NCBI GenBank assembly: GCA_016188215.1 | Contig: JACPIF010000001.1 | Coordinates: 5,923-69,922 of the forward strand | Direction of reading: 5' to 3' | DNA: 64,000 nt | Origin: Candidatus Woesearchaeota archaeon | Lineage (GTDB): Archaea; Nanobdellota; Nanobdellia; Woesearchaeales; JACPIF01 | In this document: in pieces, positions 6,589 to 51,890 of the stretch | Position numbering within the stretch: position 1 is the first letter of the stretch | How the letters are laid out: each line of letters starts with the position of its first letter | The notes under the pieces: generated by a model | The model's database searches: none | Seen by the model: only the letters and a program-made list of their open reading frames with translations | Told to the model about the DNA's origin: nothing | Program-made: the position numbers and the translations under genes

Positions 6589-6682
6589 TTGAAAATTCAT
6601 GCTAAAGCAAGGGGTTTTAAACCCATGAATTTCAATCCCGCAAACTTGCCTCGTGATTGATAGGCAAGTTTGCGTTATTTTT
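6589..6682 (+). terminator. Tandem hairpins plus T-tract between trmB and pheS
   Basis: TTGAAAATTCATG…CATGAATTTCAA (11-bp stem, 23-nt loop). Then GCAAACTTGCC-tcgtgattgata-GGCAAGTTTGC (11-bp perfect stem) followed by GTTATTTTT. Confidence 0.4.
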
Positions 6683-19212: not shown

Positions 19213-19614
19213 TTACACTACGATACTTGCCAGCTTGGCAATTCCAGGATACCTGTCGCACACTTCTTTTGCGACCGCACCTTTCAGGATAGTCCCCTTA
19301 GGATTCCCCTTGTCGTCTTTCAACACGATAGCTGCATTGTCTGCGAATTTCACGCGCATGCCATCAGGACGCCTGAACTCCTTCTTCTGCCGTGCAATGA
19401 CTGCAAAGACAACCTGTTTCCTCATGTCAGGCCGGCCTCGCTTGACTGATGCCATGATCATGTCACCAATGCCTGCCGAAGGCTTCCTGCCCTTCACAGT
19501 CTTCTGGTTGAACACTGCAGTGATCTTGATGCTCTTTGCCCCTGAATTGTCGCATGTATCAACCCATGCCCCCAACGGAAGGGCTCTCGGAATGCTTGCC
19601 TTAACTGCCTGCAT
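19213..19614 (-). CDS. rpl14: Ribosomal protein uL14
   Basis: 133 aa with L14 signature and position. Confidence 0.85.
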   Translation of the reverse strand: MQAVKASIPRALPLGAWVDTCDNSGAKSIKITAVFNQKTVKGRKPSAGIGDMIMASVKRGRPDMRKQVVFAVIARQKKEFRRPDGMRVKFADNAAIVLKDDKGNPKGTILKGAVAKEVCDRYPGIAKLASIVV

Positions 19615-20048
19615 TATGCCTCACCTTCTTTCTCTTCTCCTGGAAAACCTTTGACAGCCTGCTTTACCTTGCCCTCTGCCTTCAGCTCCTGCTTCTGCGC
19701 AAAAAGGATATCCTGCCCAATCTTCTGGACGACTACAAAATGCTTGGTCTTGGATAGCGGCCTGCATTCATGGATCCTGACCAAGTCGCCAATCTTTGCG
19801 GCAATGCATGATGGGTTGTGCACTCTGATGCGGCTTCTCCTTTTCTCGTACCGCTCATACTTTGGAATAAAGATCCTGCGCCCCCATTCAACAGTTGCAG
19901 ACTTATGGACATCTGCAGCCACCACTACTCCCGTGAATGACTGGCCCCTTACCTTCAGGCTGCCGTGGAACGGACACTTCTTGTCAGTGCACGATTCCTT
20001 TGGCGGCTGAACCTTGATTCCGATACTTTTGGTTACTGTTTTTGCCAT
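19614..20048 (-). CDS. rps17: Ribosomal protein uS17. The track ORF runs to 20150, but the likely start is MAKTVTK at 20048.
   Basis: S17 OB-fold core (GSLKVRGQSFTGVVV…IHECRPLSKTKHFVV). The upstream 34 codons overlap GC-rich repeat copy A and look non-coding. Confidence 0.75.
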   Translation of the reverse strand: MAKTVTKSIGIKVQPPKESCTDKKCPFHGSLKVRGQSFTGVVVAADVHKSATVEWGRRIFIPKYERYEKRRSRIRVHNPSCIAAKIGDLVRIHECRPLSKTKHFVVVQKIGQDILFAQKQELKAEGKVKQAVKGFPGEEKEGEA

Positions 20049-20069: not shown

Positions 20070-20150
20070 TTTTGACTTACTTTGCACCGCGCTACGCGCG
20101 GATGCGCTCAGGTGAACCTTCGCGCACTGTACTAGTCCTGCGGACAGCAC
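20070..20150. repeat. GC-rich modular hairpin repeat, copy A, between rnp1 and rps17
   Basis: tttactt-TGCACCGCGCTaCGCGCGGATgCGCTCagg-tgaa-cctTCGCGCACTGT. Two stem-loops: CCGCGC/GCGCGG and GCGCTCAGG/CCTTCGCGC. Confidence 0.6.
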
Positions 20151-25452: not shown

Positions 25453-25548
25453 ATCCCTGTAAGAACACTTGACGCGTACTGATCCAAGATTTCCTTATCA
25501 GGCTTGTCTCTTGCTATGGGGCATACCTTTGTAAAACCCCAATACAGA

Positions 25549-25566
25549 GGAAATGCGCACATTTCC
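25549..25566. repeat. GGAAATGC-NN-GCATTTCC hairpin module (third copy, standalone)
   Basis: ggaaatgcgcacatttcc. The same 8-bp stem occurs in copies C (45706) and D (49724). Confidence 0.5.
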
Positions 25567-25705
25567 TAGTCTTGAAAATCTTTGATTTTCAATACAGCCT
25601 TATTACGGGCTATAACTTGGTTTTGGAATGGCAGGGGATTTATAAAGGTTGCGGTGGGTTGTCCAATGAAAAAGCCTGTATTCACGTTTAAACTGTGATT
25701 TACCG

Positions 25706-25739
25706 CACTGGTCACTGGACAGGTGCAGACGTGAGCTAT
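25706..25739 (+). repeat. 34-nt motif CACTGGTCACTGGACAGRTG…CGTGAGNTAT, copy 1
   Basis: cactggtcactggacaggtgcagacgtgagctat, about 200 nt upstream of the Panacea cassette. Confidence 0.55.
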
Positions 25740-25941
25740 TTAAGTTCATTCCTGCTTTTTCCCCATTACAGAGGATAAATTTTAATACTAGTATTTTAAT
25801 ATTAAAATACTATGACGAAGTTACAGCATACAGGTAAACAATTTTACTTGAATATTCCCAAAGAGCATATCAGAAAATTAAACTGGAAAAAAGGAGACGA
25901 AATTTACATCACTAAAGATCCTATTAAGGACGTATTGTATT

Positions 25942-26514
25942 TTGAAAAAATGCCAGGAAGGAAAAAAAATGGAAGATGAAATTTCAATTGCCGAGAAATA
26001 TTTAATCCTTTTATTAGGAGTAGAAGATAAACCTATACCTAGTGAATTATATCTCCAGAAAGAAATTTTCGTTTTATCTCAATTTAGGCCAAAAATTCAA
26101 TCTATTTTTAACTTTCAGAAACACTATAAAGGTCCATATTCTCAACTAATAAGCGAAATAGTAGATGCACCGATTTACCATCCAGGCGCATTTGAAAAGA
26201 TTAATGAAAAAATAGTTATTACTAAGAATGGTAAAAATCAATATAGAGAGATTCTGGAAGAATATAGTAAAAACAACGAATTCAATACTTTAATCTCAAG
26301 TTTAATCTTTATTAGAAGACTTTATGAAAAATTAGATCAAGAACAATTACTTTTCTTGATATATACTAGTTATCCAAATTATATAGAATTTTCTAATATT
26401 TCTGATAAATTGCTAAAGGATAATCAAGTTAGATTGAGAATTAGTAGAGAGCTATTCCAAAAAGGCATTATTACTGAAGAAAGGTTTTTAGAATTAAAAG
26501 ATGATCAAAAATGA
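25942..26514 (+). CDS. Panacea/SocA-like (DUF4065) domain protein, putative antitoxin-like component
   Basis: ISIAEKYLILLL … LYLQKEIFVLSQ … FQKHYKGPYSQLI matches the Panacea hallmarks (LqKllY and GPv spacing). About 28-30% GC, far below the flanks. 4-nt overlap with the next ORF. Confidence 0.5.
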   Translation: MKKCQEGKKMEDEISIAEKYLILLLGVEDKPIPSELYLQKEIFVLSQFRPKIQSIFNFQKHYKGPYSQLISEIVDAPIYHPGAFEKINEKIVITKNGKNQYREILEEYSKNNEFNTLISSLIFIRRLYEKLDQEQLLFLIYTSYPNYIEFSNISDKLLKDNQVRLRISRELFQKGIITEERFLELKDDQK

Positions 26515-27050
26515 AAGACTTAGTTGCCGACTCAAGTTTTTATCTATGTTTCTTGGAAGATATTTGCAGCCCTTCTGATTTGGTTGCCATCATTGATAAT
26601 TTTAGGGCCCATTTAACTCCTTTAATTCATAAAGAAATTAAGAGATCAATCAATTTCTCATCAATAGATCAGCATGCTAATATTAATATTTTCTCAACAC
26701 CAAGTTTCAATATAGGTGAATTAGTTAAACCCTTCTTTTCAAAGAAGGAAATATCAAAGGGAGAACACGAAATTGTTGTGGCCGCATATTTTATTTATAA
26801 CACTAATAGAGATATTATAATAATTATTGATGAGAAAGGACCCAGGCAATTTATAATCAATCATTTGCCGGAATTAATACCTTTCCTTACTGGGACCGTT
26901 GGTATGGTTGGATCATGTTATTATACCTTTGCCATAATGGATAAACAGAAAACTTTAAATTTATTGGACCAAATAGGGTCTTCTAGATTTAGAGTAACTC
27001 AAAAAATATTAAATGAAATAAAAGAGAAGGTTGTGAACCACCGTGACTAA
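26511..27050 (+). CDS. Hypothetical protein, possible PIN-like nuclease (candidate toxin partner)
   Basis: The N-terminal LVADSSFYLCFLED and later GEHE / IIIDEKG / AIMDK acidic positions have PIN-like spacing. AT-rich. 8-nt overlap with the next ORF. Confidence 0.3.
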   Translation: MKDLVADSSFYLCFLEDICSPSDLVAIIDNFRAHLTPLIHKEIKRSINFSSIDQHANINIFSTPSFNIGELVKPFFSKKEISKGEHEIVVAAYFIYNTNRDIIIIIDEKGPRQFIINHLPELIPFLTGTVGMVGSCYYTFAIMDKQKTLNLLDQIGSSRFRVTQKILNEIKEKVVNHRD

Positions 27051-28170
27051 AATCCAAATTAAAGAAGTTATTGAAGACAAAACATCCGATTTCAATATTA
27101 AACGATATAAACTTTCAGGATTAACTTTGGATGAGCCGATAAAGACTTTTGATATTTCTTTAACTACAAATGGTCTGTTTAACGGTATTAAAATTAAGAA
27201 TAAGGTTCTTGAAAAACGAAAATCAATAAGACATTTTGAAACAATTAAGAAAGTTATAGAAGAAGATGATGATAAAATTATTAATCAATTCTTTGGAAAA
27301 GCACAATGGGCAGCAGGATATCCCTCCTTGATTAATGTAACTTTTGATTTTAATCCTTATAACTTTGTTAATAAAATGGAATCAATTGCTTCGTTTTTTG
27401 ATTATTATTATACTTATTCCAAAGATTTACTATTTGTACCAAATATTCGCTACAAGAAGTCAAATAACATTATAATAGATCTCGCAAATTATAAGAAATT
27501 TGTTGATGAAGTCTATAATCTATTAAATAAAAAAAATTCAAAACCAATTTTTGTACCTATATCACTAAGATTTCCTATAAAATATTATGAAGATTTAATA
27601 AAACATTATAAGAAAAAAGACTATCTTTATTTCTGGTTTGATTTTGAAGGGAAGCCCATAAATGAAGCAATAGCTGGAAGAATAAGGAGTATTAATTCAC
27701 TTATAAGAGAGCAAGGGCTGTTTAAACAATCTATAACCTATTTTACTAATATTAAGCGAGAAATTTTATCTAACATCAAAGACTTGGATAGTCCAGCATC
27801 CGATATCCTAGCAACTGTAATTGGAGCAAATATTACAGGAGTTAATAGGGAACCATTAAGATTTTTTGAATCAGGTGTTGAAGTTCCAGATCCAAATGAG
27901 ATTTGGAAACATAAGGCTAGAAATTTTGATAAAGATTCTTATTACTATGTCAAGAAAAAAGGGCCTGTGGAAAAAAAGAATGAAAATTTTACAAATAATA
28001 GTATTGTATTGAATGAAGAGCTTAGTAACCAAAGCGAGTATTTTTCAAAGAAATTAGAAATTAGAAATTATCTTTTAAAGAAAAGGATGTTAAATGAGTA
28101 CCAAAATGGTAATTTCTTAAGAAGGATTACAAATTCTGGTAGACAGGCTGGATTGAGTAGCTTCTTCTAA
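27043..28170 (+). CDS. Hypothetical 375-aa protein (third gene of the AT-rich cassette)
   Basis: No recognisable motif. Very low GC and Lys/Asn/Ile-rich. Its stop abuts the stop of the convergent rhomboid gene with zero spacing. Confidence 0.45.
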   Translation: MTKIQIKEVIEDKTSDFNIKRYKLSGLTLDEPIKTFDISLTTNGLFNGIKIKNKVLEKRKSIRHFETIKKVIEEDDDKIINQFFGKAQWAAGYPSLINVTFDFNPYNFVNKMESIASFFDYYYTYSKDLLFVPNIRYKKSNNIIIDLANYKKFVDEVYNLLNKKNSKPIFVPISLRFPIKYYEDLIKHYKKKDYLYFWFDFEGKPINEAIAGRIRSINSLIREQGLFKQSITYFTNIKREILSNIKDLDSPASDILATVIGANITGVNREPLRFFESGVEVPDPNEIWKHKARNFDKDSYYYVKKKGPVEKKNENFTNNSIVLNEELSNQSEYFSKKLEIRNYLLKKRMLNEYQNGNFLRRITNSGRQAGLSSFF

Positions 28171-28821: not shown

Positions 28822-28952
28822 TTACTTATACTAATTTGGACGGCTTCGCCGCCATGCGCTTCGCGCACTGCAATATGTCCCCCGATTTGCTGTAAAATAC
28901 GATTCGGGGGACTCCTCGCACCCCGGAGCGAACCTTTAGGTGAGCGACTACT
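28822..28952. repeat. GC-rich modular hairpin repeat, copy B, between priSL and the rhomboid gene
   Basis: Shares tttactt, CTTCGCGCACTG, a GTCCCCCG…CGGGGGAC 8-bp stem with a TTGCTGTAAAA loop, and TCGCACCCCGGAGC with copies C and D. Confidence 0.6.
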
Positions 28953-28955
28953 TTG

Positions 28956-30278
28956 CTAGTTATTAGTATTGTCTACCTTCTCTTTCTTTACTCTTTTCTT
29001 TGTCGGTATAGCAGTCAACTTAACTTTCTTTAAGGTATACTGGGCAGGATTACGTATCTTCTGGCAGAAATTGTCAGGCTTGCACACGCCAATATCAATC
29101 ATGTATGCCTTATTGTCGCAGTTGGGAGGCGGCATCTTCTTTCGCTGCAGTTTATGATACTTCAATTGGCCGAGGATATAGTTCTCCCTTAACGGCTCTG
29201 CATTCTTCTCGTTCCACGCCCTGACAATATTTTCCATCTCTTCATAGCTGTAGCCGACAGATGAAAGGAAGTTAAGCAAAACAAATAATGCGCGCTTCTT
29301 GCCGTCACTTAACCCATCCAAAATAAGCTTGATGCAAGGCGGGAAATATTCTGCTGAGATTGCCTCTGAAGGGATCTCAAACTGCTTCTCTGTCTTCTCA
29401 GGCTGCTTTGCGCTCTGCTCAAATGAGGTGTCAAATGCATCCAGAAGCAACCTTCTGGCTTCCCCCCTTACAGCATTCCTGTCAATGAAGCTGCCTTTCA
29501 CTATAACATTCTCAGGAGCAGCCATTGATTTCTGGAACTGCAATACCCGCATAGGATCAACAGGTATGGAGACAAGCCATGATTTTTCGTTCAAAGTGTA
29601 GGGCATCCTGTACAAATGCCGGGATGAGATAAGGACAGTGTCTATGTCAAGCAAAGAAAATGGGTTAAGCTGGTTATTGATGACCAGCTCCTTGTAGCCC
29701 TTTCCCGTGAGCTTCTGTATATCTTCAAAGGAGTATGCGTTGAGAATTGCCTGCATTAATTCATCTTTTATCTTTTCCTTTAGCCTTGCAGCAATCTGCC
29801 TAGGGCCTTCAGGGAACAGGTCTTTGGTCAAATTTTTGCCAACCCTGTCAGGAAAGCTTTCAAAAGGAATGCCGATATGGAAACCGTTGCCGCCTGAGAA
29901 CTTTAAGGAGACACTCCTGATGCCTTCCAGCTTTAATCTTTTGCAGATAATGAAAGCGGCTATCTTGGAGAATTCAACGTGCTTGGTGTCAATGTCCAGG
30001 AGCAAATCCCAGCCTATGCGTAATGCGTCCAGCTCTTTTCTTTTTAGGTTTGGGCTTAAAGCTAATGGATTGCTCCATAATTCTTCAGAAGCATGAAAAC
30101 TGGTGGCGCCTTCCTTGGCAAGCTCAAACACATCCCTTGGATACTGCAGGATATCCGGCCTTTTTCCGAAACCAGACTCGCCGAACTTCACAGCAACTTC
30201 TCTATTGGCTGCGTTCTGGAAAATAGCTTCCTGGACCTCTTTCCTAGAGTAATACTGCAGTATGAGCCTGGCATCCAT
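28956..30278 (-). CDS. priSL: Fused DNA primase: PriS catalytic domain plus PriL C-terminal Fe-S domain
   Basis: N-terminal PriS-like core (LLDIDTKH, SFHxS). The C-terminal FPPCIKLIL…PPNCDNK…GVCKPDNFC resembles the PriL-CTD 4Fe-4S cluster ligands. Confidence 0.6.
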   Translation of the reverse strand: MDARLILQYYSRKEVQEAIFQNAANREVAVKFGESGFGKRPDILQYPRDVFELAKEGATSFHASEELWSNPLALSPNLKRKELDALRIGWDLLLDIDTKHVEFSKIAAFIICKRLKLEGIRSVSLKFSGGNGFHIGIPFESFPDRVGKNLTKDLFPEGPRQIAARLKEKIKDELMQAILNAYSFEDIQKLTGKGYKELVINNQLNPFSLLDIDTVLISSRHLYRMPYTLNEKSWLVSIPVDPMRVLQFQKSMAAPENVIVKGSFIDRNAVRGEARRLLLDAFDTSFEQSAKQPEKTEKQFEIPSEAISAEYFPPCIKLILDGLSDGKKRALFVLLNFLSSVGYSYEEMENIVRAWNEKNAEPLRENYILGQLKYHKLQRKKMPPPNCDNKAYMIDIGVCKPDNFCQKIRNPAQYTLKKVKLTAIPTKKRVKKEKVDNTNN

Positions 30279-30370: not shown

Positions 30371-33064
30371 TTGAGAGGGCAGAGTATGAAGATTATTTTA
30401 CCTATCATAATTATTTTTGTCTTAACAGTACTTAGTGCAAGCTATGTCTTTAGTGTTTCTTCACCTTACATAAAAGGATTTGTTTATGATAATTCCCTTC
30501 CTGACGAACCAAGATACAAGTATGTTTGCTTCAATACAAATGATAAAACTTATAGCATGAATATCACTCATGATTCTATGAGTTTTCAATGCTCCATAGT
30601 TAATGTTTCTGACACCCTAATTAGAGTTTTATGTGACAGCAGACATGATGGCAATGGGGATGGTAAATGCCAGAGCGGTGAATCCTGCATTGGCTATAGT
30701 TTCTACTCTGACAGGTATAATGTTGTAGATACAGATGGCGCATTTTCTTTTGATCCACCAGCTAGCTGGACTAGTATTCTTGATGAGAATGGCTATATGC
30801 ATTATAGCTACCTAATTGACATATGGGTATTTCGCAACACTGGACTAGACGAGTTAGTTGTAACACAACAGAGTGGCAGTGTATGTCCTGCTCCTAGAAT
30901 TGTAAATTACAATATCTATAATACCACAAATGAGAGTGGTCAAAATGTTGTAACCATTGGAATTAATACAGATCTTGATGGCTCATGTAAATTGTCGAAC
31001 CAATCCGGTACAGCATTTGAGAATATGATTTCTTTTAATGTGACTGGAGCAAATAGACATAACTATAGTTTTGTTCCTGAAGAGAATCGCAATTATACTT
31101 TCTACGCCAAGTGTAATAATTCAATAGGTAATATAAATAGCGAAGAGTCAAAAATTACATTTCTATTTGAATCAAGCAAGCCAGTTTTCTCATTTAATGA
31201 ATCTAAAATAAATATCTCTACTAACCTTACTATTGGGCTTTTTGCTCCGTTTTCTGACTATGGTTTTGGGTTTGCTGTAAATACAAGCTGTGAAATCTGT
31301 ATAGCTTCTGATAGAATTTGTGACACTGAATGGACGACTCAAGATGTAATAACAAATTACTCAAATGATTATTTAAGCGGTAATTGCTCTTATTCCTGGA
31401 ACAATTCAAATAACACAGATGCGCATTATAATGTAAGTTTCAGAATAAATGATATTTTAGGAAATAAAGGCATTGCTTCTAAACAAATTACTCTGGACAG
31501 GTATCCTCCTGAATTTAGGTTATACGACCCTTGGGACAATAAAGTGTTCACAGTAAATAATTCACAGATTGGCACAAATTTAACTACAGACGTGACTTTC
31601 TACTATGATGTACATGATTTAACTTCTATAGCAAATTGCTCATTAAAAATTAATGGGAAGGTAAATGCAACAAATACAACTGCTGGAGGAGGCTTCCACA
31701 AGTTTAGAGTAGATTTTCCAACAAATTTTGAAGGAGCAAAGAGTTTTAACTGGAGCATAAATTGTGCCGATGTTTTCGGATCTGAACTTATAGGTCAAAC
31801 AAGGAAATTTACTTTTATAGTGCTAGGAAATTTCTCAGGGGAAACTACTGATTTGAGTGCCGTGAATTTGTCTTATATACCTAATTTAACCTTTGAAGAA
31901 TCAAACTTAGGAAAGATCAAATTTATGGATATCATTAATTTAAGTAATGCATCTTTAAATCTCAATGATTATATAAAAATTTCCACATATAGAATAGAAA
32001 TAAACAGTGATGCCCTGCCTGCCCTCAACAAACCAGCTACATTATATATGTATAATGTTACCTACAGCAATCCCCGTATTATACGAGATGGAGAAGTGTG
32101 CCCCTCTGCTATCTGCGCCATTGTAAATGTCTCAAATGGGACTGTCATCTTTAATGTCACCCAATTTAGCACATATACCCTAGAAGAGACACCAGCTTCT
32201 TCTGATCCTTCTGACCCATCCACTCCAAGCGATGAAGGCGATTCAGGAGGCGGAAGTGGAGGAGATTCTAGCAGTGGAGGGTCTTCTGGTGGCTCAGGAG
32301 GAGGTTCCTCTGGCAGTGGTGGCGGCGGGGGAGGCGGTGGTGGAGGGGGCGGGAGCTCAAGCGGAAGCACTTCACCAGGAATGAAGGCCGAGCGGTTTTA
32401 TGACATTGTAAAACCAGATACGCCTATTGTTTTTACTGTTAGAAATGATGAACTTGCTGTGACTAAAATCACTATTAATCCAGCAATTCAGAGAGAAAAT
32501 GTAAATATTATGGTAGAGAAGATAGTGAATGAAACGAAAGTAACTCTACAGCTTCCAAACACGCTACAATACCTTAATTTAAGTGTTACAAATCTTGAAG
32601 ATACTTCTATTCAGGCCGCTTCATTTGAGTTTAAAATAGGCAAAACTTGGTTAGTTGATAGAAATTTTGAAAGTACAGACGTTGCGATGAAAAGATTCAA
32701 AGATGGGGTATGGGGCAATCTACCGACTTCTATAGTTAATGAATCCCAATATGATTACTCTTACATAGCATCCACTCCAGGATTCTCAATTTTCGCTATA
32801 ACTGCTGAAAAGCAAAAAGAGAAGGTAAGTCAAGAACCAACTCAAATTATGAAAGAAGAAAATATAGCCTTTCAATCCGTTGAACCAGTTGCCGAGGATG
32901 TCAATAATACGAATGTCAAAGACGAAAACCTTATTACTGGTTCAGCTGTAACAATTCCTGCAGAACAAGCCCATTTAAGATATACTTGGTTATTAATCCC
33001 TGCTATAGCAGTTTCACTAGGTTTACTTTATCTTTATAGGAAATATACAAAAAAGAAAAAATAA
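30371..33064 (+). CDS. Large secreted surface (S-layer-like) glycoprotein with a poly-Gly/Ser linker and C-terminal TM anchor
   Basis: Signal peptide MKIILPIIIIFVLTVLSASYVFS. More than 50 N-x-S/T sequons. A G/S run of about 60 aa at 32230-32390. C-terminal TM LLIPAIAVSLGLLYLY plus RKYTKKKK. Confidence 0.6.
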   Translation: MRGQSMKIILPIIIIFVLTVLSASYVFSVSSPYIKGFVYDNSLPDEPRYKYVCFNTNDKTYSMNITHDSMSFQCSIVNVSDTLIRVLCDSRHDGNGDGKCQSGESCIGYSFYSDRYNVVDTDGAFSFDPPASWTSILDENGYMHYSYLIDIWVFRNTGLDELVVTQQSGSVCPAPRIVNYNIYNTTNESGQNVVTIGINTDLDGSCKLSNQSGTAFENMISFNVTGANRHNYSFVPEENRNYTFYAKCNNSIGNINSEESKITFLFESSKPVFSFNESKINISTNLTIGLFAPFSDYGFGFAVNTSCEICIASDRICDTEWTTQDVITNYSNDYLSGNCSYSWNNSNNTDAHYNVSFRINDILGNKGIASKQITLDRYPPEFRLYDPWDNKVFTVNNSQIGTNLTTDVTFYYDVHDLTSIANCSLKINGKVNATNTTAGGGFHKFRVDFPTNFEGAKSFNWSINCADVFGSELIGQTRKFTFIVLGNFSGETTDLSAVNLSYIPNLTFEESNLGKIKFMDIINLSNASLNLNDYIKISTYRIEINSDALPALNKPATLYMYNVTYSNPRIIRDGEVCPSAICAIVNVSNGTVIFNVTQFSTYTLEETPASSDPSDPSTPSDEGDSGGGSGGDSSSGGSSGGSGGGSSGSGGGGGGGGGGGGSSSGSTSPGMKAERFYDIVKPDTPIVFTVRNDELAVTKITINPAIQRENVNIMVEKIVNETKVTLQLPNTLQYLNLSVTNLEDTSIQAASFEFKIGKTWLVDRNFESTDVAMKRFKDGVWGNLPTSIVNESQYDYSYIASTPGFSIFAITAEKQKEKVSQEPTQIMKEENIAFQSVEPVAEDVNNTNVKDENLITGSAVTIPAEQAHLRYTWLLIPAIAVSLGLLYLYRKYTKKKK

Positions 33065-36808: not shown

Positions 36809-36842
36809 CACTGGTCACTGGACAGATGTGCGCGTGAGATAT
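36809..36842 (+). repeat. 34-nt motif CACTGGTCACTGGACAGRTG…CGTGAGNTAT, copy 2
   Basis: cactggtcactggacagatgtgcgcgtgagatat, starting 3 nt after the htpX stop and about 90-140 nt upstream of the LAGLIDADG-like gene. Confidence 0.55.
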
Positions 36843-36931
36843 ATAAAGGCTAACCTCTCCCATTGATTAACTCATTCAATATAAATCCCACTAGGATGTG
36901 TTCAGCTTTCAAATTATGATTTCCAATTCTC

Positions 36932-38095
36932 GTGAAATCATTTACAAAGCTTCACATAATTAAAAAGACGGTGATTTACATGAATTCGCTTAATCAAATC
37001 AAAATTAGAGAGTTCCACATTAATCAATTTCCCACTGATAGAATATTCATTTCTTTAAACGAGAGTTTTCATAGAGAACTCTTTTCCATGATAAATATTA
37101 AAAATTATGAAAATTTGAATAAATCAACTTTTAAGCAATGGAAAAATAGAAGGCATTTTATTCCACTCTGGGTTATCATTAAGCTGCAGGAAACTTCACC
37201 ATATTCTATAGAAGACTTTGAAAGAAATATTATCGCGTATAAGGGTCCTAGTACCTCTGCTGTGATCGATAACCCATGTTTGCCTTTACTGGAGGATGAA
37301 AGACTACTGCGTGCTGTGGCCCACTTATTAGGAGACGGATTTGTAGGAGGCGGCTTTGGCAGTAAGTTGCCTCAAGGGAAGCAACACTCAGAATTTAGAA
37401 ACTTTGCTCCGGAACTTTTGGACAGTTTCCATAGAGATTTATCGGTATTTGGAAATGTTCCTGTAACTAAAAATTATCAGCACGGTTCTTTAGTAATACC
37501 CAATTCTATAGGGTATATCTTATGTCATCTTTATAGGATAAAGTTTGACACATTTAATTCACGAGTGCCAGAAGTATTTTTTAATCTTCCTAAAGAGTTG
37601 GTAGCACAATTCTTACGCGCCTTTGCAGATGATGAAGCACACGTTTTTGATAGTTCTATTGAGTATTATTCATGTAATAAGGATCTATTGCAAGATGTAC
37701 TATCTTTAATGAATTCACATTTTCCAGAGATTAAGACTTCTGGAATTAAAGCCAATATTAAAGCAGGAAGAAATACAAAGTATTCATTTTCAGTTTATAG
37801 CAAATCTCAAGAATTGTACCTGAATCATATAGGATTTGACCACAATCAAAAAACAAAAGATTTAACATTTAATCTAAGTCGCAATAAAAATAGAAAATAC
37901 AACAAAAATTCTCGCGATATAATTCTGGATTTATTAGCAAATAATACTTTATCTGCAAAGGAACTCTCTAGAATTACGAATATCACTCATGTACAAGTTT
38001 TGGCTTATCTTAAAGAACTTAAGGAACAAAGAAAGGTAAAAATTATTGAAAAAGTACATTGGGCTAATCGATGGACTTCTAAATTATCTCAATAA
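36932..38095 (+). CDS. Free-standing LAGLIDADG-like protein with C-terminal wHTH (possible homing-endonuclease relic)
   Basis: Two motifs about 100 aa apart: VAHLLGDGFVGG and FLRAFADDEAHV. C-terminal HTH LSAKELSRITNITHVQVLAYLKEL. Low GC. Confidence 0.4.
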   Translation: MKSFTKLHIIKKTVIYMNSLNQIKIREFHINQFPTDRIFISLNESFHRELFSMINIKNYENLNKSTFKQWKNRRHFIPLWVIIKLQETSPYSIEDFERNIIAYKGPSTSAVIDNPCLPLLEDERLLRAVAHLLGDGFVGGGFGSKLPQGKQHSEFRNFAPELLDSFHRDLSVFGNVPVTKNYQHGSLVIPNSIGYILCHLYRIKFDTFNSRVPEVFFNLPKELVAQFLRAFADDEAHVFDSSIEYYSCNKDLLQDVLSLMNSHFPEIKTSGIKANIKAGRNTKYSFSVYSKSQELYLNHIGFDHNQKTKDLTFNLSRNKNRKYNKNSRDIILDLLANNTLSAKELSRITNITHVQVLAYLKELKEQRKVKIIEKVHWANRWTSKLSQ

Positions 38096-45649: not shown

Positions 45650-45782
45650 TGACGAGCGCGAAATGCGCGCTACAAAATCACGGAAACTTTTGTTTCCGGG
45701 ACTCGGAAATGCAAGCATTTCCTTTGTGTCCCCGAGTGATTGCTGTGAAGCCTGAAATTCGGGGACTGTTCACAGTCCAGTT
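45650..45782. repeat. GC-rich modular hairpin repeat, copy C, upstream of tgt
   Basis: AGCGCG-aaat-GCGCGCT, CGGAAAC-tttt-GTTTCCG, GGAAATGCaaGCATTTCC, GTCCCCGAG…TTGCTGTGAA…ATTCGGGGAC, and an inverted ACTGTTCACAGT. Confidence 0.6.
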
Positions 45783-45876
45783 TAGGTTTACCTCAACTGG
45801 TTCCCTGCTCATTGTCATGTTGTTTTATAATAACACAACCACAAACTTTTAATGCGATTGCTTAACCCTGCACCCC

Positions 45877-48767: not shown

Positions 48768-49511
48768 CTAATCATTCTCCACCCTCGGAGCGAGGATAAA
48801 TGCCAGCTGCAACTTATCAACCAGATTGTATTCCAGCTTTAGAGGATAATCCTTGTTCATGCGGATTATCACGTTGTCTGTCAATTTAGCCGCGGAGATC
48901 ATCTTCTTGAGGTATTCAATTGAATATTTCGCCCTTACTTTGTCGTCTGCATCAAACTCAATCTTTGTCTCATCATCTGCCTTGACCTCTATCTTTGCCT
49001 GGCTTAAATCGCCCTCTCCCATTATAGTAAAGCGCTTTGGCTCCACTACAAAGCTGACTGATTCTGCAACTATATCAGCATCTTCAATTGCTTCGCTTAA
49101 TATTGCAGAGGAGGTAGTGATGCTTACCGGGAATTTCAGCTCAGGGATTTTCTGCTCCTTTTCTTCCAAGTCAATTATCGGCAATGAAAATGAGCGCAGG
49201 GTGCCGCCTTTCATTACAATGTCAAGCTTGTTATCGCCTATTTCCAGTGAAAGCATGTCTTCCGGCTTAACACGCCTAAGGATCTGCTTGAGGTTGCTCA
49301 GGTTGATGGCAATCTCCATCTCCTTGTCAATGTTGTATTCAGTAAAGCATGAAGAAAGCAAATTGAACATGACCATGGCAACATTTGCAGGGTCCATAGC
49401 TACAAGCTGCATGGAATTCTTGCCTATCCTGAACCTGCCTTCAGTAACTAGATCTGAGATAATGGAAACACTCTCTTTCAAAAAGCGCGGCTCTGCCAAT
49501 GTCAAACGCAT
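48768..49511 (-). CDS. pcn: DNA polymerase sliding clamp PCNA
   Basis: 247 aa with PCNA two-domain pattern (…SMQLVAMDPANVAMVMFNL…). Confidence 0.8.
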   Translation of the reverse strand: MRLTLAEPRFLKESVSIISDLVTEGRFRIGKNSMQLVAMDPANVAMVMFNLLSSCFTEYNIDKEMEIAINLSNLKQILRRVKPEDMLSLEIGDNKLDIVMKGGTLRSFSLPIIDLEEKEQKIPELKFPVSITTSSAILSEAIEDADIVAESVSFVVEPKRFTIMGEGDLSQAKIEVKADDETKIEFDADDKVRAKYSIEYLKKMISAAKLTDNVIIRMNKDYPLKLEYNLVDKLQLAFILAPRVEND

Positions 49512-49597
49512 ACTTCAACCCCCTATCACCTGTTCTCTGTAGGCTCCCTGTATAAATAAGCAGTATTTAATGCTTTTGCTTTCTCTGTGTCTTTGTC

Positions 49598-49800
49598 ATT
49601 TACTTACTAACGTGCAGTGCACCGCTTCGCGGACAGCGCTCGGATAAATCCTCGCGCACTGTGAACAGTTCCCGAACCACAATACACAGTGAATCATCGA
49701 AAATCCGTGATTTTCGAGGCTAGGAAATGCCCGCATTTCCTTTGATTCGGGGACCCAATCGCACCCCGGAGCCGAGGTTAATCTCGGCGACTAATTTCCC
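49598..49800. repeat. GC-rich modular hairpin repeat, copy D, between pcn and rnj
   Basis: catttactt…TGCACCGCttCGCGG…GCGCTCgga-taaa-tccTCGCGCACTGTGAACAGT, plus GGAAATGCccGCATTTCC, GATTCGGGGAC and TCGCACCCCGGAGC. Confidence 0.6.
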
Positions 49801-49820
49801 CATTATAGTTATTTCCTAAT

Positions 49821-51158
49821 TTAACTCAAGGTGATGCGCTGGCCATCCTTGAGAAGATGGATTGTTGCATTCGGCATGTAGCCCATTTCAGACGCAAGGT
49901 CAGAAGCAGCACGCAGCATCAAGGGAGTGCCATGCGCCGGGATAATATGCTTCGGCTTGACTATGTTTATCATGTCCCGCAAATCTTCCCTGGCAGCGTG
50001 ACCGGAGACGTGGATATCCTTGAAGATGCGGACCTTTGCCTGCCGCAGCTTCTCCTCTATAATCTCGCGGTTCCTGATATTGGTCTCAGTCGGGATAACT
50101 TTGCATGAGAAAATGACGTGGTCATCCGGCCTGAAATTGAAGTGCAGCTCCCGGTTGAGCATTTTTGATAGAATGGACGTCTGCTCGCCTTGGTGACCAG
50201 TCACCACAACCAGGAATTTATTGCGGTGGCGCTCAACCTCTTTCAGCTTCCTCTTAATATGCCTTGAATAGCGGATGATCTCTATGCCCTTGAAATCCAT
50301 GACGCCGCTGGATGCAGATGCCCTTGTATATTTCTCAAGGCTCCTGCCAAGGAAAAGGATGCGGCGATTCAACTTCTTCCCGCACTCAATGATGGATTTC
50401 AACCTGGCTATGTGAGATGAGAAAGTGGTCACAACAATTGCATTATCCTTTGACTTTGTGCCAAGTAAAACATCCTTGAGCATCTGCCTAGCTACACCTT
50501 CAGAAGGTGTCTTGATAGCGATGTTGGCATTAGTTGAGTCAAGGATCAATGCCAAGACCCCATGCCTGCCAAGCTCCTCAAGCCGCTTCAGGTTTGTCTT
50601 CTTGCCAACAATAGGAGAACGGTCAAACTTGAAATCAACTGCATAGAGAATAATGCCGTATGGGGTATGGAGGGCAATGACTGCAGTCTGCGGAGTGGAA
50701 TGGGTTATATGCACCAATTCAACTGTAATTGCATCTGAGACCTTATACTTGGAATTCGGATGGACTGTCTTGATAGGATTCCTTAATTGGAGCTTTTCCT
50801 CCTCAACAATTGTCTTGATGACTGCTGTTGTAAATGGAGTCCCTATCAATGGGGCATGGAAGCGGTTGCTTAAGAAAGGGATGGCGCCTACGTGGTCAAG
50901 GTGAGCATGGCTTGGAATAATCGCTTTAACCTGCTGCTGCCAATCTTCAATCGGCTCAAGATTTGGGATGGCGCCAACTTTAGTCAATTCATCAACATCA
51001 ACCTTGACAATATCCTCGTTCTCCGTGTAACGGATGTAATGCTCAAGATGCAGGCCCATGTCAAGGATAACGACTTCATTGTCTATCTTGATAGCAGTGC
51101 AATTCCTGCCTATATCTGAATATCCGCCGACTGCTGTTATCTGGATTGCCATTGTCAA
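49821..51158 (-). CDS. rnj: beta-CASP/MBL ribonuclease, archaeal RNase J-like
   Basis: HSHAHLDHVGAIPFL and a beta-CASP region. 445 aa with no KH domains, so RNase J-like rather than aCPSF1. Confidence 0.7.
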   Translation of the reverse strand: MTMAIQITAVGGYSDIGRNCTAIKIDNEVVILDMGLHLEHYIRYTENEDIVKVDVDELTKVGAIPNLEPIEDWQQQVKAIIPSHAHLDHVGAIPFLSNRFHAPLIGTPFTTAVIKTIVEEEKLQLRNPIKTVHPNSKYKVSDAITVELVHITHSTPQTAVIALHTPYGIILYAVDFKFDRSPIVGKKTNLKRLEELGRHGVLALILDSTNANIAIKTPSEGVARQMLKDVLLGTKSKDNAIVVTTFSSHIARLKSIIECGKKLNRRILFLGRSLEKYTRASASSGVMDFKGIEIIRYSRHIKRKLKEVERHRNKFLVVVTGHQGEQTSILSKMLNRELHFNFRPDDHVIFSCKVIPTETNIRNREIIEEKLRQAKVRIFKDIHVSGHAAREDLRDMINIVKPKHIIPAHGTPLMLRAASDLASEMGYMPNATIHLLKDGQRITLS

Positions 51159-51191
51159 ATGTTAATTTTAAATCAAAATGTAATTTACTTG

Positions 51192-51345
51192 CCTTTGCTA
51201 ATTTGCACCGCGCTGCGCGCGGATAGCGCTCGCCTAAAGTCGAGCGCACTGTGAACAGTCCGCCGTTATCGATGCACATCTGATGTTGGCGGACTCCCGT
51301 AACCACGGAGGTGACATTTATGTCACCGACTACCATGCTCGTTAC
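51192..51345. repeat. GC-rich modular hairpin repeat, copy E, between rnj and the tRNA
   Basis: aatttactt…TGCACCGCGCTgCGCGCGGATaGCGCTCG-cctaaagt-CGAGCGCACTGTGAACAGT, then CCGCC…GGCGG, and the perfect palindrome GGTGACATttATGTCACC. Confidence 0.6.
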
Positions 51346-51370
51346 CGTTGCATGCTCAATTACTATTAAA

Positions 51371-51477
51371 TGCGGGGAGCAGGTTTCGAACCTGCGTAGG
51401 CACTTAGCCATTAGCTCTTGAGGCTAACCCGTAAAGCCTTCCTTTTTAGGGGAATTTGGCCACTCCGGCATCCCCGC
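51371..51477 (-). tRNA. tRNA-like gene, 107 nt, probably intron-containing. Isotype unresolved.
   Basis: Minus-strand acceptor GCGGGGA/TCCCCGC plus discriminator A. T-arm GCAGG-TTCGAAA-CCTGC. D-arm GGAG-TGGCCAAA-TTCC with a 4-nt 8/9 spacer. About 32 nt in excess of a standard tRNA. Confidence 0.5.
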
Positions 51478-51527
51478 GCAGGAATGCTGATTACAGCTTT
51501 ATTTAAAAAGCTTATCCACGCTTTGGT

Positions 51528-51890
51528 CTAAGAAAGCTTGTTCAGCCTGCCTTCAATAAAACTGAGTTCCTGCTCAAGCTTCTCTATTTCATTCAATTCC
51601 TTTTTAGAAATCTTATTCTTGGCCTGCTTTTTGGTTTCTTGTATAGGGATGCGCTCAGGCAGCTTTAAGCCTGCTTTAGGGAACTGCGCCTTTAGATCCG
51701 TGTTCAGCTTGTCTATCTCCTCAAAGATGTGCCTTAACTCAAGGGTAAGCTTTACCTTCTCTTCCCTGATAGGCTTTAATTCCTCATACCGCTGTAGCTG
51801 GCGTATGATCTCCTTGGCGCATTCCAGGGTGCTTTTTCTGGCCTGCACTGGCTCAGGAATGCCTACAAAAAGGCTGTAATCCTCAGCCAT
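51528..51890 (-). CDS. Coiled-coil protein
   Basis: 120 aa, heptad-rich, last of three tandem coiled-coil genes. Confidence 0.4.
   Translation of the reverse strand: MAEDYSLFVGIPEPVQARKSTLECAKEIIRQLQRYEELKPIREEKVKLTLELRHIFEEIDKLNTDLKAQFPKAGLKLPERIPIQETKKQAKNKISKKELNEIEKLEQELSFIEGRLNKLS

What the first reader, a model, noticed from the sequence alone, without database searches (positions are those of the whole stretch)
20070..20150. Dispersed family of GC-rich modular hairpin repeats at operon boundaries, with compensatory stem changes
Related elements sit at 20070-20150, 28822-28952, 45650-45782, 49598-49800 and 51192-51345. All are in the same orientation on the plus strand, and all are intergenic and immediately upstream of minus-strand gene starts or operon junctions (rnp1|rps17, priSL|rhomboid, pcn|rnj, rnj|tRNA, upstream of tgt). 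Shared modules are tttactt-TGCACCGCGCTnCGCGCGG (6-bp stem), GCGCTC-N-GAGCGC (AGG/CCT in A, GGA/TCC in D, CG…CG in E: the base pairs covary), CGCGCACTGTGAACAGT, GGAAATGCnnGCATTTCC, GTCCCC(C)GA…TTGCTGTRAA…TCGGGG(G)AC and TCGCACCCCGGAGC. Covariation that preserves pairing argues for a structured RNA or protein-bound DNA hairpins, not random similarity. Copy A splits the classical S10-like and spc-like halves of the r-protein cluster. Possible roles are a terminator or insulator, a transcription-factor site, a MITE-like mobile element or an sRNA family.
Basis: seen in the sequence. Interest (0 to 1): 0.75.

Follow-up and report, generated by a model that had tools for sequence, protein, structure and literature searches.

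The report
Mosaic palindromic repeat family, DPANN archaeon
Five intergenic spots (plus a sixth fragment) in this Woesearchaeota genome carry copies of one family of GC-rich, hairpin-forming repeated DNA that behaves like selfish REP/BIME- or MITE-type elements, a known kind of element and not a new RNA or regulatory system.

Summary
A (20070-20150), B (28822-28955), C (45650-45800), D (49598-49800) and E (51192-51345) are related far beyond chance: each is re-found in leave-one-out HMM searches at E=2e-3 to 4e-12, with no false hits. A sixth fragment, F, lies at 25546-25595. The host is a 'Ca. Woesearchaeota' (DPANN) MAG.

Read towards the downstream gene, the modules follow one order: (G/T)TAGTC, an 18-nt variable hairpin, TCCGGGGTGCGA, a GTCC...GGAC hairpin, TGTTCACAGT, hairpin 2, hairpin 1, then TGCAAA(T/G)TAG..AAGTAAAT.

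The evidence favours DNA-level mobile mosaic repeats over a structured RNA:
- Stems are almost purely Watson-Crick (192 WC, 1 G:T).
- Hairpin loops and modules occur flipped.
- A two-hairpin module is nested inside a loop of D.
- Sites A and D are empty in related genomes.
- Short-read contigs of the same strain break inside A, D and E. The break arithmetic implies an identical 34-nt module elsewhere in the genome.

There is no Rfam match, no oligo-T terminator, no terminal inverted repeat and no transposase in the window. Genome-wide copy number and the mobilising enzyme could not be determined. This is a new member of a known kind, of modest interest.

The parts
20070..20150 (-). Element A. 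Truncated copy holding the 3' half only: GTCC-tgc-GGAC hairpin (20129-20150), hairpin 2 TGCGC..GCGCA (20103-20126), hairpin 1 CCGCGC-tac-GCGCGG (20087-20101), and the tail TGCAAAGTAAGTC. It lies between the rnp1 stop codon and the rps17 start.
   Evidence: The site has only a 22-29 nt spacer in relatives L034 and L035. Logan contigs of the same strain end at 20116, inside it.
28822..28955 (-). Element B. Full-length copy with a short hairpin 2. Order: GTAGTC, 18-nt hairpin, TCCGGGGTGCGA, GTCCCCCGA..TCGGGGGAC hairpin, ATATTGCAGT, TGCGC-gaa-GCGCA, GGCGGC..GCCGTCC, AAATTAG..AAGTAAAA. It abuts the stop codon of the primase gene and lies upstream of the rhomboid gene start.
   Evidence: Logan contigs of 12-20 kb run through it unbroken.
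45650..45800 (+). Element C. Rearranged copy whose core (GTCCCCGA..TCGGGGAC, TGTTCACAGT, hp2-like CCAGTT-T-AGGT-tt-ACCT-C-AACTGG) reads on the plus strand towards TGT. It also carries an F-type two-hairpin module (45681-45722) and a GTAG-tagged GCGCG hairpin (45655-45672).
49598..49800 (-). Element D. Full-length copy between the RNase J stop codon and the conserved PCNA promoter.
   Evidence: About 248 nt are present here but absent from the same junction in L006, L029 and L031.
49694..49743 (-). F-type two-hairpin module (TCGAAAATC hairpin + GGAAATGC hairpin), nested in the loop of D's GTCC hairpin.
49636..49669 (.). 34-nt segment of D (hairpin 2 + ACTGTGAACAGT). From contig-overlap arithmetic it must occur identically at another locus, outside the window, in the same samples.
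   Evidence: L002 ends at 49665 and L038 starts at 49640. The overlap of 26 = 60 - r gives r = 34 for k = 31. No 31-mer is repeated inside the window.
51192..51345 (-). Element E. The most complete copy, lying between a tRNA gene and the RNase J start.
   Evidence: Logan contig L038 ends at 51255, inside it. The same junction carries diverged hairpin mosaics in L006, L029 and L009.
25546..25595 (+). Element F. Solitary two-hairpin module (AGGAAATG-cgca-CATTTCCT, TAGTC, TTGAAAATC-ttt-GATTTTCAA) upstream of the rpl3 operon, inverted relative to the copy inside D.

Best explanation
These are copies of a lineage-specific family of non-coding mosaic palindromic repeats: selfish DNA of the REP/BIME or MITE type, in a Woesearchaeota (DPANN) chromosome.

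Shown:
- Each copy is a string of short hairpin modules joined by conserved spacers in a canonical order.
- Copies sit between the stop codon (or tRNA end) of one gene and the promoter or start of the next, always pointing the same end at the downstream gene.
- Modules are exchanged, truncated, flipped and nested between copies.
- Two of the sites (A and D) are unoccupied in related genomes.
- At least some modules recur identically outside the window.

Inferred:
- The family spreads and reshuffles as DNA. Most likely single-stranded hairpins are recognised next to a (G/T)TAG-TC tag by a trans-acting enzyme encoded elsewhere in the genome, by analogy with IS200/IS605 and RAYT enzymes.
- Pairing-preserving changes come from the need for a DNA hairpin, from template-switch correction of quasi-palindromes, or from both. 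They do not come from selection on an RNA fold.
- The insertions are tolerated because they carry no oligo-T terminator and leave the downstream promoter or start intact, so they are probably co-transcribed.
- Any host effect, such as REP-like protection of the upstream mRNA 3' end, would be secondary.
For: - Relatedness beyond chance.
- Canonical module order with fixed-length variable hairpins.
- Stems are almost purely Watson-Crick: 192 WC, 1 G:T, 14 mismatches, with no strand bias.
- Flipped units. The GTCC-hairpin loop of D is inverted relative to B and C. ACTGTGAACAGT appears as ACTGTTCACAGT in C. F is the inverse of the module inside D.
- Nested insertion of a 50-nt two-hairpin module in a hairpin loop of D.
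- Empty sites. At the rnj|pcn junction in L006, L029 and L031 the stop codon is followed directly by the conserved promoter GAAAAGCAAAAACATTAAATA. The rnp1|rps17 spacer is 22-29 nt in L034 and L035, against 108 nt here.
- A relative (L009) has a different 16-bp-arm inverted repeat, flanked by a 10-11 bp direct repeat, at the D site. Small palindromic insertions with target duplication therefore occur in this lineage.
- Same-strain Logan contigs, one of them seen in six samples, break inside A, D and E. The 26-nt overlap of the two D-flanking contigs implies an identical 34-nt module at another locus. No 31-mer is repeated inside the window.
- TAGTC is about 7-fold enriched in the elements, each time directly 5' of a hairpin.
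- A published census reports a Woesearchaeal genome among the most MITE-dense archaeal genomes, at 105 per Mb (PMC11602168). The density here is about 6 per 64 kb.
Against: - No transposase of any family was found among about 30 window ORFs scanned against Pfam.
- There are no terminal inverted repeats.
- There is no clean target-site duplication. The similar (T/A)GCAAA(T/G)TAG-like motifs at both ends are no more alike within a copy than between copies.
- Genome-wide copy number is unknown. Exact-pattern scans of GTDB representative genomes, JGI metagenomes and IMG/VR gave only chance hits. A six-frame translated search of the protein database gave nothing.
- Copies in the window are quite diverged, with the longest shared exact word 22 nt. 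Recent bursts are therefore not visible here.
- The orientation towards the downstream gene in 5 of 5 copies, and the conserved spacers with variable stems, would also fit a selected cis-acting element.
- The E site is occupied in four related genomes, which could mean function rather than an insertion hot spot.
Confidence: 0.6

Rival explanations
1. Selected cis-acting RNA structures in the inter-cistronic or untranslated regions. The hairpin strings would be transcribed with the flanking genes and act as barriers to exonucleases or as processing sites. That would uncouple the stability or expression of neighbouring genes, whatever the elements' origin.
For: - All five copies have the same polarity relative to the downstream gene.
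- Spacers are conserved while stems vary but stay paired.
- Folds are more stable than shuffles, z = -1.6 to -5.
- The tRNA|rnj junction carries a hairpin mosaic in four related genomes, with one compensatory A:T to G:C change between L006 and L029.
- There is no oligo-T, so read-through transcription is expected.
Against: - Only 1 G:T among about 190 pairs, and no strand asymmetry.
- Hairpins and loops occur flipped, which an RNA read from one strand would not tolerate neutrally.
- Both strands fold about equally well.
- Sites A and D are empty in relatives, so the structures are not needed at these junctions.
- The L009 copy at the E site has lost an arm.
- No Rfam match.
- The RNAalifold consensus is weak: -10.3 kcal/mol with a covariation term of +1.5.
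Confidence: 0.2
2. Arrays of palindromic DNA binding sites for a dimeric transcription factor or chromatin protein, placed just upstream of promoters.
For: - Perfect short palindromes with 2-4 nt centres, such as GGAAATGC-aa-GCATTTCC and GGTGACAT-tt-ATGTCACC.
- Location directly upstream of BRE/TATA-like sequence: TGCAAATTA.. in the elements and in the relatives' rnj promoters.
- Watson-Crick-only symmetry.
Against: - The palindromes at equivalent positions have different sequences in different copies. One protein would not read them all.
- D sits more than 60 nt upstream of the conserved PCNA promoter, and relatives lack it.
- A lies inside a ribosomal-protein operon where relatives have no promoter region.
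Confidence: 0.08
3. A family of independently transcribed small RNA genes.
For: - Multi-hairpin units of 80-200 nt in intergenic DNA.
- AT-rich, TATA-like sequence lies next to several copies on both strands.
Against: - There is no promoter-like motif at a constant distance on either strand (reading).
- No terminator T-run follows the elements.
- Truncated, rearranged and nested copies exist.
- There are no G:U pairs.
- There is no Rfam match.
- B abuts a stop codon directly.
Confidence: 0.07

Closest known systems
REP sequences and BIMEs (bacterial interspersed mosaic elements) with their RAYT transposases
   Same: - Short GC-rich extragenic palindromes.
- Clustered into mosaic units with conserved linkers, lying between genes and often just after a stop codon.
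- Sub-families keep the palindrome through complementary substitutions (PMC2817692, PMC3733652).
- A GTAG tag, separated from the stem by two unpaired bases, precedes the first hairpin in B and E (TTAG in D). This resembles the GTAG-1/2 REP classes (PMC3733652).
   Different: - The host is an archaeon. The surveys read here report REP and RAYT families in bacterial phyla only.
- Each element combines several different hairpins in a fixed order, not one REP in alternating orientations.
- Most hairpins carry no GTAG tag.
- No RAYT or other Y1 transposase was seen, although only 64 kb could be examined.
- Copy number is unknown.
Prokaryotic MITEs, including the high MITE density reported for a Woesearchaeal genome (PMC11602168)
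   Same: - Small non-coding intergenic repeats with strong secondary structure.
- Presence/absence differences between related genomes, nested copies, and a density of about one per 10 kb.
- A relative (L009) shows a textbook miniature inverted repeat with a 10-11 bp target duplication at one of the same junctions.
   Different: - The window's elements have no terminal inverted repeats and no clear target-site duplication.
- No related autonomous IS was found.
GC clusters of yeast mitochondrial DNA, and BOX/RUP-type modular repeats of Streptococcus (recalled from general knowledge; only the title of PMC4478555 was seen)
   Same: - GC-rich palindromic modules scattered in AT-richer intergenic DNA.
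- Modular build from a few box types with a variable number and order.
- Mobile behaviour without an obvious transposase of their own.
   Different: Unrelated hosts and sequences. The resemblance is of kind only and was not tested here.
IS200/IS605-type ends and their miniature derivatives (PATEs) in archaea (own knowledge)
   Same: - Sub-terminal hairpins rather than terminal inverted repeats.
- Similar short motifs at the left flank and at the right end: xTAG|TC ... TTAG|.
- Insertion without target duplication.
- Strong orientation bias.
   Different: - No tnpA or tnpB is present in the window.
- Cleavage motifs are only guessed from five copies.
- There are far more internal hairpins than a pair of IS ends would give.

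Membership tests
REP/BIME | Short (20-40 bp) imperfect palindromes, extragenic, GC-rich | tested here: met
   Hairpins have 4-9 bp stems and 2-23 nt loops, all lie between genes, and the elements are 49-56% GC against 44.5% for the window.
REP/BIME | Conserved GTAG (or CGTC) tag at one end of the palindrome | tested here: inconclusive
   GTAG-TC precedes the first hairpin in B and E, and TTAG-TC in D. GTAG abuts the GCGCG hairpin in C. TAGTC is about 7-fold enriched in the elements. Most other hairpins (hp1, hp2, the GTCC hairpin) have no such tag.
REP/BIME | High copy number (tens to hundreds per genome) | not testable with these tools
   The MAG is absent from the scanned collections. Only indirect evidence exists for copies outside the window.
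REP/BIME | Cognate RAYT (Y1 transposase) gene flanked by the repeats | not testable with these tools
   About 30 window ORFs showed no Y1_Tnp or OrfB_IS605 domain. The rest of the genome is unavailable.
REP/BIME | Clusters made of the same REP in alternating orientation with defined linkers | tested here: not met
   Clusters consist of different hairpins in a fixed order. Only occasional units are flipped.
MITE | Terminal inverted repeats | tested here: not met
   Terminal 35-nt inverted-match scores equal the shuffle median for all five elements.
MITE | Target-site duplication flanking each copy | tested here: inconclusive
   Both ends carry (T/A)GCAAA(T/G)TAG-like motifs, but these match only 5-7 of 10 positions within a copy, no better than between copies (reading).
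MITE | Presence/absence of copies at orthologous sites in related genomes | tested here: met
   The D site is empty in L006, L029 and L031. The A site is empty in L034 and L035.
MITE | Sequence-related autonomous insertion sequence supplying the transposase | not testable with these tools
   None is present in the window.
Known structured RNA family (Rfam) | Match to a curated covariance model | tested here: not met
   The only gathering-level hit in the window is a tRNA. Nothing overlaps the elements at E<=10 in window 49450-51600 or in L006.
Structured RNA in general | Strand-specific pairing signal (G:U pairs, one strand folding better) and a consensus fold with covariation support | tested here: not met
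   There is 1 G:T among about 190 pairs. Plus- and minus-strand energies are similar. The RNAalifold covariation term is +1.5. The sample is small, at 3-5 copies.
Archaeal intrinsic terminator | Oligo-T run (five or more T) on the transcribed strand at or after the structure | tested here: not met
   No run of five or more T occurs on the minus strand within 40 nt of any element. On the plus strand such runs lie only before A and B, not after them.

The most novel reading that the evidence does not exclude
The family could be the first REP/RAYT-like, single-strand hairpin transposition system in DPANN archaea. Alternatively it could be a domesticated portable junction cassette whose gene-proximal end (TGCAAA(T/G)TAG..AAGTAAAT) supplies a BRE/TATA-like promoter. 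In that case insertions would split compact operons, such as the ribosomal-protein cluster at rnp1|rps17, into separately expressed units.
Probability: 0.12. Interest if true: 0.6.

Novelty: new member of a known kind. Interest (0 to 1): 0.3.

Why it matters
DPANN archaea have very small, compact genomes and are not usually thought of as hosts for proliferating repeats. A mosaic palindromic family at about one copy per 10 kb, inserted even inside the ribosomal-protein operon, shows that selfish intergenic DNA can persist there. It also explains why short-read assemblies of this organism fragment at these spots.

Practically, the elements are good strain markers and a warning for MAG binning and assembly. 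Biologically, the point would rise in interest only if a cognate transposase, or an effect on the expression of neighbouring genes, were shown.

Tried and rejected
1. Genome-wide copies.
- An exact-pattern scan of GTDB representative genomes with hp1-tail + hp2 + GCGCACTGT gave 11 hits, all chance matches in high-GC bacteria.
- A stricter pattern in JGI metagenomes gave 5 hits in contigs of 67-74% GC, all chance.
I underestimated the chance background in high-GC genomes.
- Four IMG/VR scans gave nothing real.

2. A concatenated six-frame translation of all elements was searched against the 5.8-billion-protein database, to catch spurious ORF calls over other copies. No hit reached E<=10.

3. 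Rfam gave nothing on the elements, in gathering mode and in permissive mode.

4. nhmmer with the element model against about 100 kb of related Woesearchaeota loci gave no homologous copies. The relatives' mosaics have the same style but different sequences.

5. RNAalifold on the MAFFT alignment recovered only the 18-nt hairpin. Other stems were mis-registered by the alignment, so I counted pairs on hand-registered arms instead. I did not build a covariance model, because no further sequence of this genome was available to search.

6. One look-up was lost to a wrong RNase J start codon.

7. A link between the two-hairpin insertion in the L009 tRNA gene and the F-type module showed no sequence similarity.

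8. The terminator, terminal-inverted-repeat and chance-similarity readings were rejected.

Full report
**Host and setting.** PCNA (48768-49511, minus strand) and S17 (19614-20048, minus strand) are 100% identical to NCBI proteins named 'Candidatus Woesearchaeota archaeon', on a 158-kb contig. The window is 44.5% GC. The nearest relatives that could be fetched are about 34% GC. They are L006 from GCA_964602245.1, L009/L010/L011, L029/L030 and L031, with PCNA at 83-87% identity.

- Shared stretches: A/E 22 of 23 nt, D/E 35 of 42 nt, C/D 28 of 34 nt, B/D 14 of 14 nt.
- In leave-one-out nhmmer searches of the 64-kb window the omitted element is always the top non-training hit. E-values are A 2.9e-6, B 2.3e-8, D 4.7e-9, E 3.5e-12 and C 1.6e-3. 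Nothing unrelated scores below E about 2.
It is the reverse complement of D 49694-49743.
- Other intergenic gaps of 60 nt or more are either short unlisted genes or unrelated sequence.

**Anatomy.** The reading direction is towards the downstream gene. That is the minus strand for A, B, D and E, and the plus strand for the core of C. B, D and E are colinear:
- (G/T)TAGTC
- a variable hairpin of exactly 18 nt (three different sequences)
- TCCGGGGTGCGA (TCCGTGGTTACGG in E)
- a GTCC...GGAC hairpin with a variable distal stem and loop
- TGTTCACAGT
- hairpin 2 (GCGC-GA-nnnn..nnnn-GA-GCGC, always 12 nt between GCGCTC and GCGCAC on the plus strand)
- hairpin 1 (CCGCGC..GCGCGG)
- TGCAAA(T/G)TAG...AAGTAAAT

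The other copies depart from this order.
- A is the 3' half only.
- C has the GTCC hairpin, TGTTCACAGT and an hp2-like hairpin reading towards TGT on the opposite strand.
- D carries a 50-nt two-hairpin module inside the loop of its GTCC hairpin. C has the same module beside that hairpin, and F is the module alone.
- The loop of D's GTCC hairpin is inverted relative to B and C.

'Same orientation on the plus strand' is therefore wrong. All five do point the same end at a downstream gene start.

**DNA or RNA?** Several results point to DNA.
- On hand-registered arms the stems contain 192 Watson-Crick pairs, 1 G:T and 14 mismatches. Own arms pair at 85-100%, against 54-85% for arms swapped between copies.
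- Pairing-preserving change is therefore real, for example in 4 of 7 pairs of the 18-nt hairpin. There is no wobble signal, and the few asymmetric mismatches favour different strands.
- Both strands fold about equally well.
- The alignment-wide RNAalifold consensus is weak, with no covariation bonus.
- No Rfam family matches, even at E<=10.
- No run of five or more T follows the hairpins in either reading direction. Established knowledge is that archaeal intrinsic termination needs oligo-T, so this argues against a terminator.
- Complementary substitutions that keep the palindrome are described for REP/BIME DNA repeats (PMC2817692, PMC3733652). Covariation alone therefore does not argue for RNA.

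**Evidence for gain and loss.**
- At the rnj|pcn junction of L006, L029 and L031 the stop codon is followed directly by the conserved promoter-like GAAAAGCAAAAACATTAAATA. The window has about 248 extra nt (element D) between the two.
- L009 has, at the same place, an unrelated inverted repeat with 16-bp arms, flanked by a 10-11 bp direct repeat.
- The rnp1|rps17 spacer is 22-29 nt in L034 and L035, against 108 nt here.
- The closest S17 relative (L033, 88% amino-acid identity) has GC-rich sequence ending in TGCAAATGAAAAATAAAC 51 nt upstream of S17, and its contig stops there.
- The tRNA|rnj junction (E) carries hairpin mosaics in L006 and L029. These two are alignable with each other, with one compensatory A:T to G:C change in the GTCC hairpin. 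L009 carries a decayed one. All differ in sequence from E except for the GTCCGCC..GGCGGAC unit.
- L006 has a second copy of its own family next to another tRNA gene.
- The style of element is thus lineage-wide, the sequences turn over, and occupancy differs between genomes.

**Copies outside the window.** Direct scans failed, because the MAG is not in the searchable DNA collections. Logan (k=31) contigs of the same strain give an indirect answer.
- They end at 20116 inside A, at 49665 and 49640 inside D, and at 51255 inside E. One of these contigs was seen in six samples.
- Contigs run unbroken through B, C and F.
- The two contigs flanking D overlap by 26 nt. For a segment of length r repeated with different flanks, the flanking unitigs overlap by 2(k-1) - r. 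This gives r = 34, that is 49636-49669, which is exactly hairpin 2 plus ACTGTGAACAGT.
- No 31-mer occurs twice in the window, so the second copy lies elsewhere in the genome or in a co-occurring close relative. This is an inference from graph behaviour, not a sighting.

**Mechanism.** The best-supported reading is selfish mosaic palindromic DNA of the REP/BIME or MITE kind (confidence 0.6).
- Shown: relatedness, modular shuffling, inversion, nesting, site polymorphism, and the absence of RNA-family, terminator and TIR features.
- Inferred: spread through hairpin-forming single strands recognised beside a (G/T)TAG-TC tag by an enzyme encoded elsewhere; tolerance through read-through transcription; and a possible REP-like effect on mRNA ends. 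TAGTC is about 7-fold enriched and always lies 5' of a hairpin.
- Against: no transposase in the window, no TIR, no clean target duplication, and unknown copy number.
- Rivals: selected cis-acting RNA structure (0.2), protein-binding palindrome arrays (0.08), sRNA genes (0.07).

**Novelty.** MITE-type repeats are common in prokaryotes. A census already lists a Woesearchaeal genome among the most MITE-dense archaeal genomes, at 105 per Mb (PMC11602168). REP surveys cover bacteria (PMC3733652, PMC2817692). This family appears undescribed, but it is a new member of a known kind. Interest is 0.3.

Noticed in passing
window 25706-25743 and 36809-36846: A 38-nt direct repeat (CACTGGTCACTGGACAG..., 82% identical) occurs twice, 11 kb apart. 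Each copy lies 90-200 nt upstream of a plus-strand ORF with no clear family. The second ORF, 36932-38095, has weak LAGLIDADG_3 and HTH_24 hits. It could be a shared promoter or operator, or the ends of an inserted segment.
   Followed up: no
window 25942-28170 and 30371-33064: These stretches are 28% and 35% GC inside a 44.5% GC window. They encode ORFs of 190, 179, 375 and 897 aa with no Pfam match. They may be foreign or fast-evolving DNA next to the ribosomal-protein cluster.
   Followed up: partly
window 51371-51469 (-); L006 8329-8442; L009 8130-8320: An intron-containing tRNA gene is missed by ARAGORN and scores below the Rfam gathering threshold (20 bits). The L009 orthologue carries four insertions relative to L006. 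The first is two adjacent 8-bp hairpins flanked by CAAT/CCAAT. It shows no sequence similarity to the F-type module.
   Followed up: partly
window 6593-6674: Two long perfect hairpins (9-bp and 13-bp stems) are followed by TTATTTTT, between two plus-strand genes. This looks like a terminator and is unrelated in sequence to the repeat family.
   Followed up: no
L009 9863-9935 (also L010, L011, L012): A perfect inverted repeat with 16-bp arms is flanked by a 10-11 bp direct repeat, (C)ATGAAAAGCA, at the rnj|pcn junction. It is absent from L006, L029 and L031, so it is a textbook miniature insertion with target duplication in a relative.
   Followed up: partly
window 28956-30278 (-): A single 440-aa ORF matches both the small-subunit primase domain (residues 119-241, just below the cut-off) and the large-subunit domain (residues 269-409). 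It appears to be a fused PriS-PriL primase.
   Followed up: no
whole window versus L006, L009: The window genome is about 10 percentage points richer in GC than its nearest fetched relatives (44.5% against 34%), despite 83-87% PCNA identity and conserved gene order.
   Followed up: no
L033 460-545: The closest S17 relative has a 73-nt S17|L14 spacer holding a CCGAG-tttt-CTCGG hairpin, where the window has no spacer at all. Occupied junctions in the ribosomal-protein operon therefore differ between relatives.
   Followed up: no
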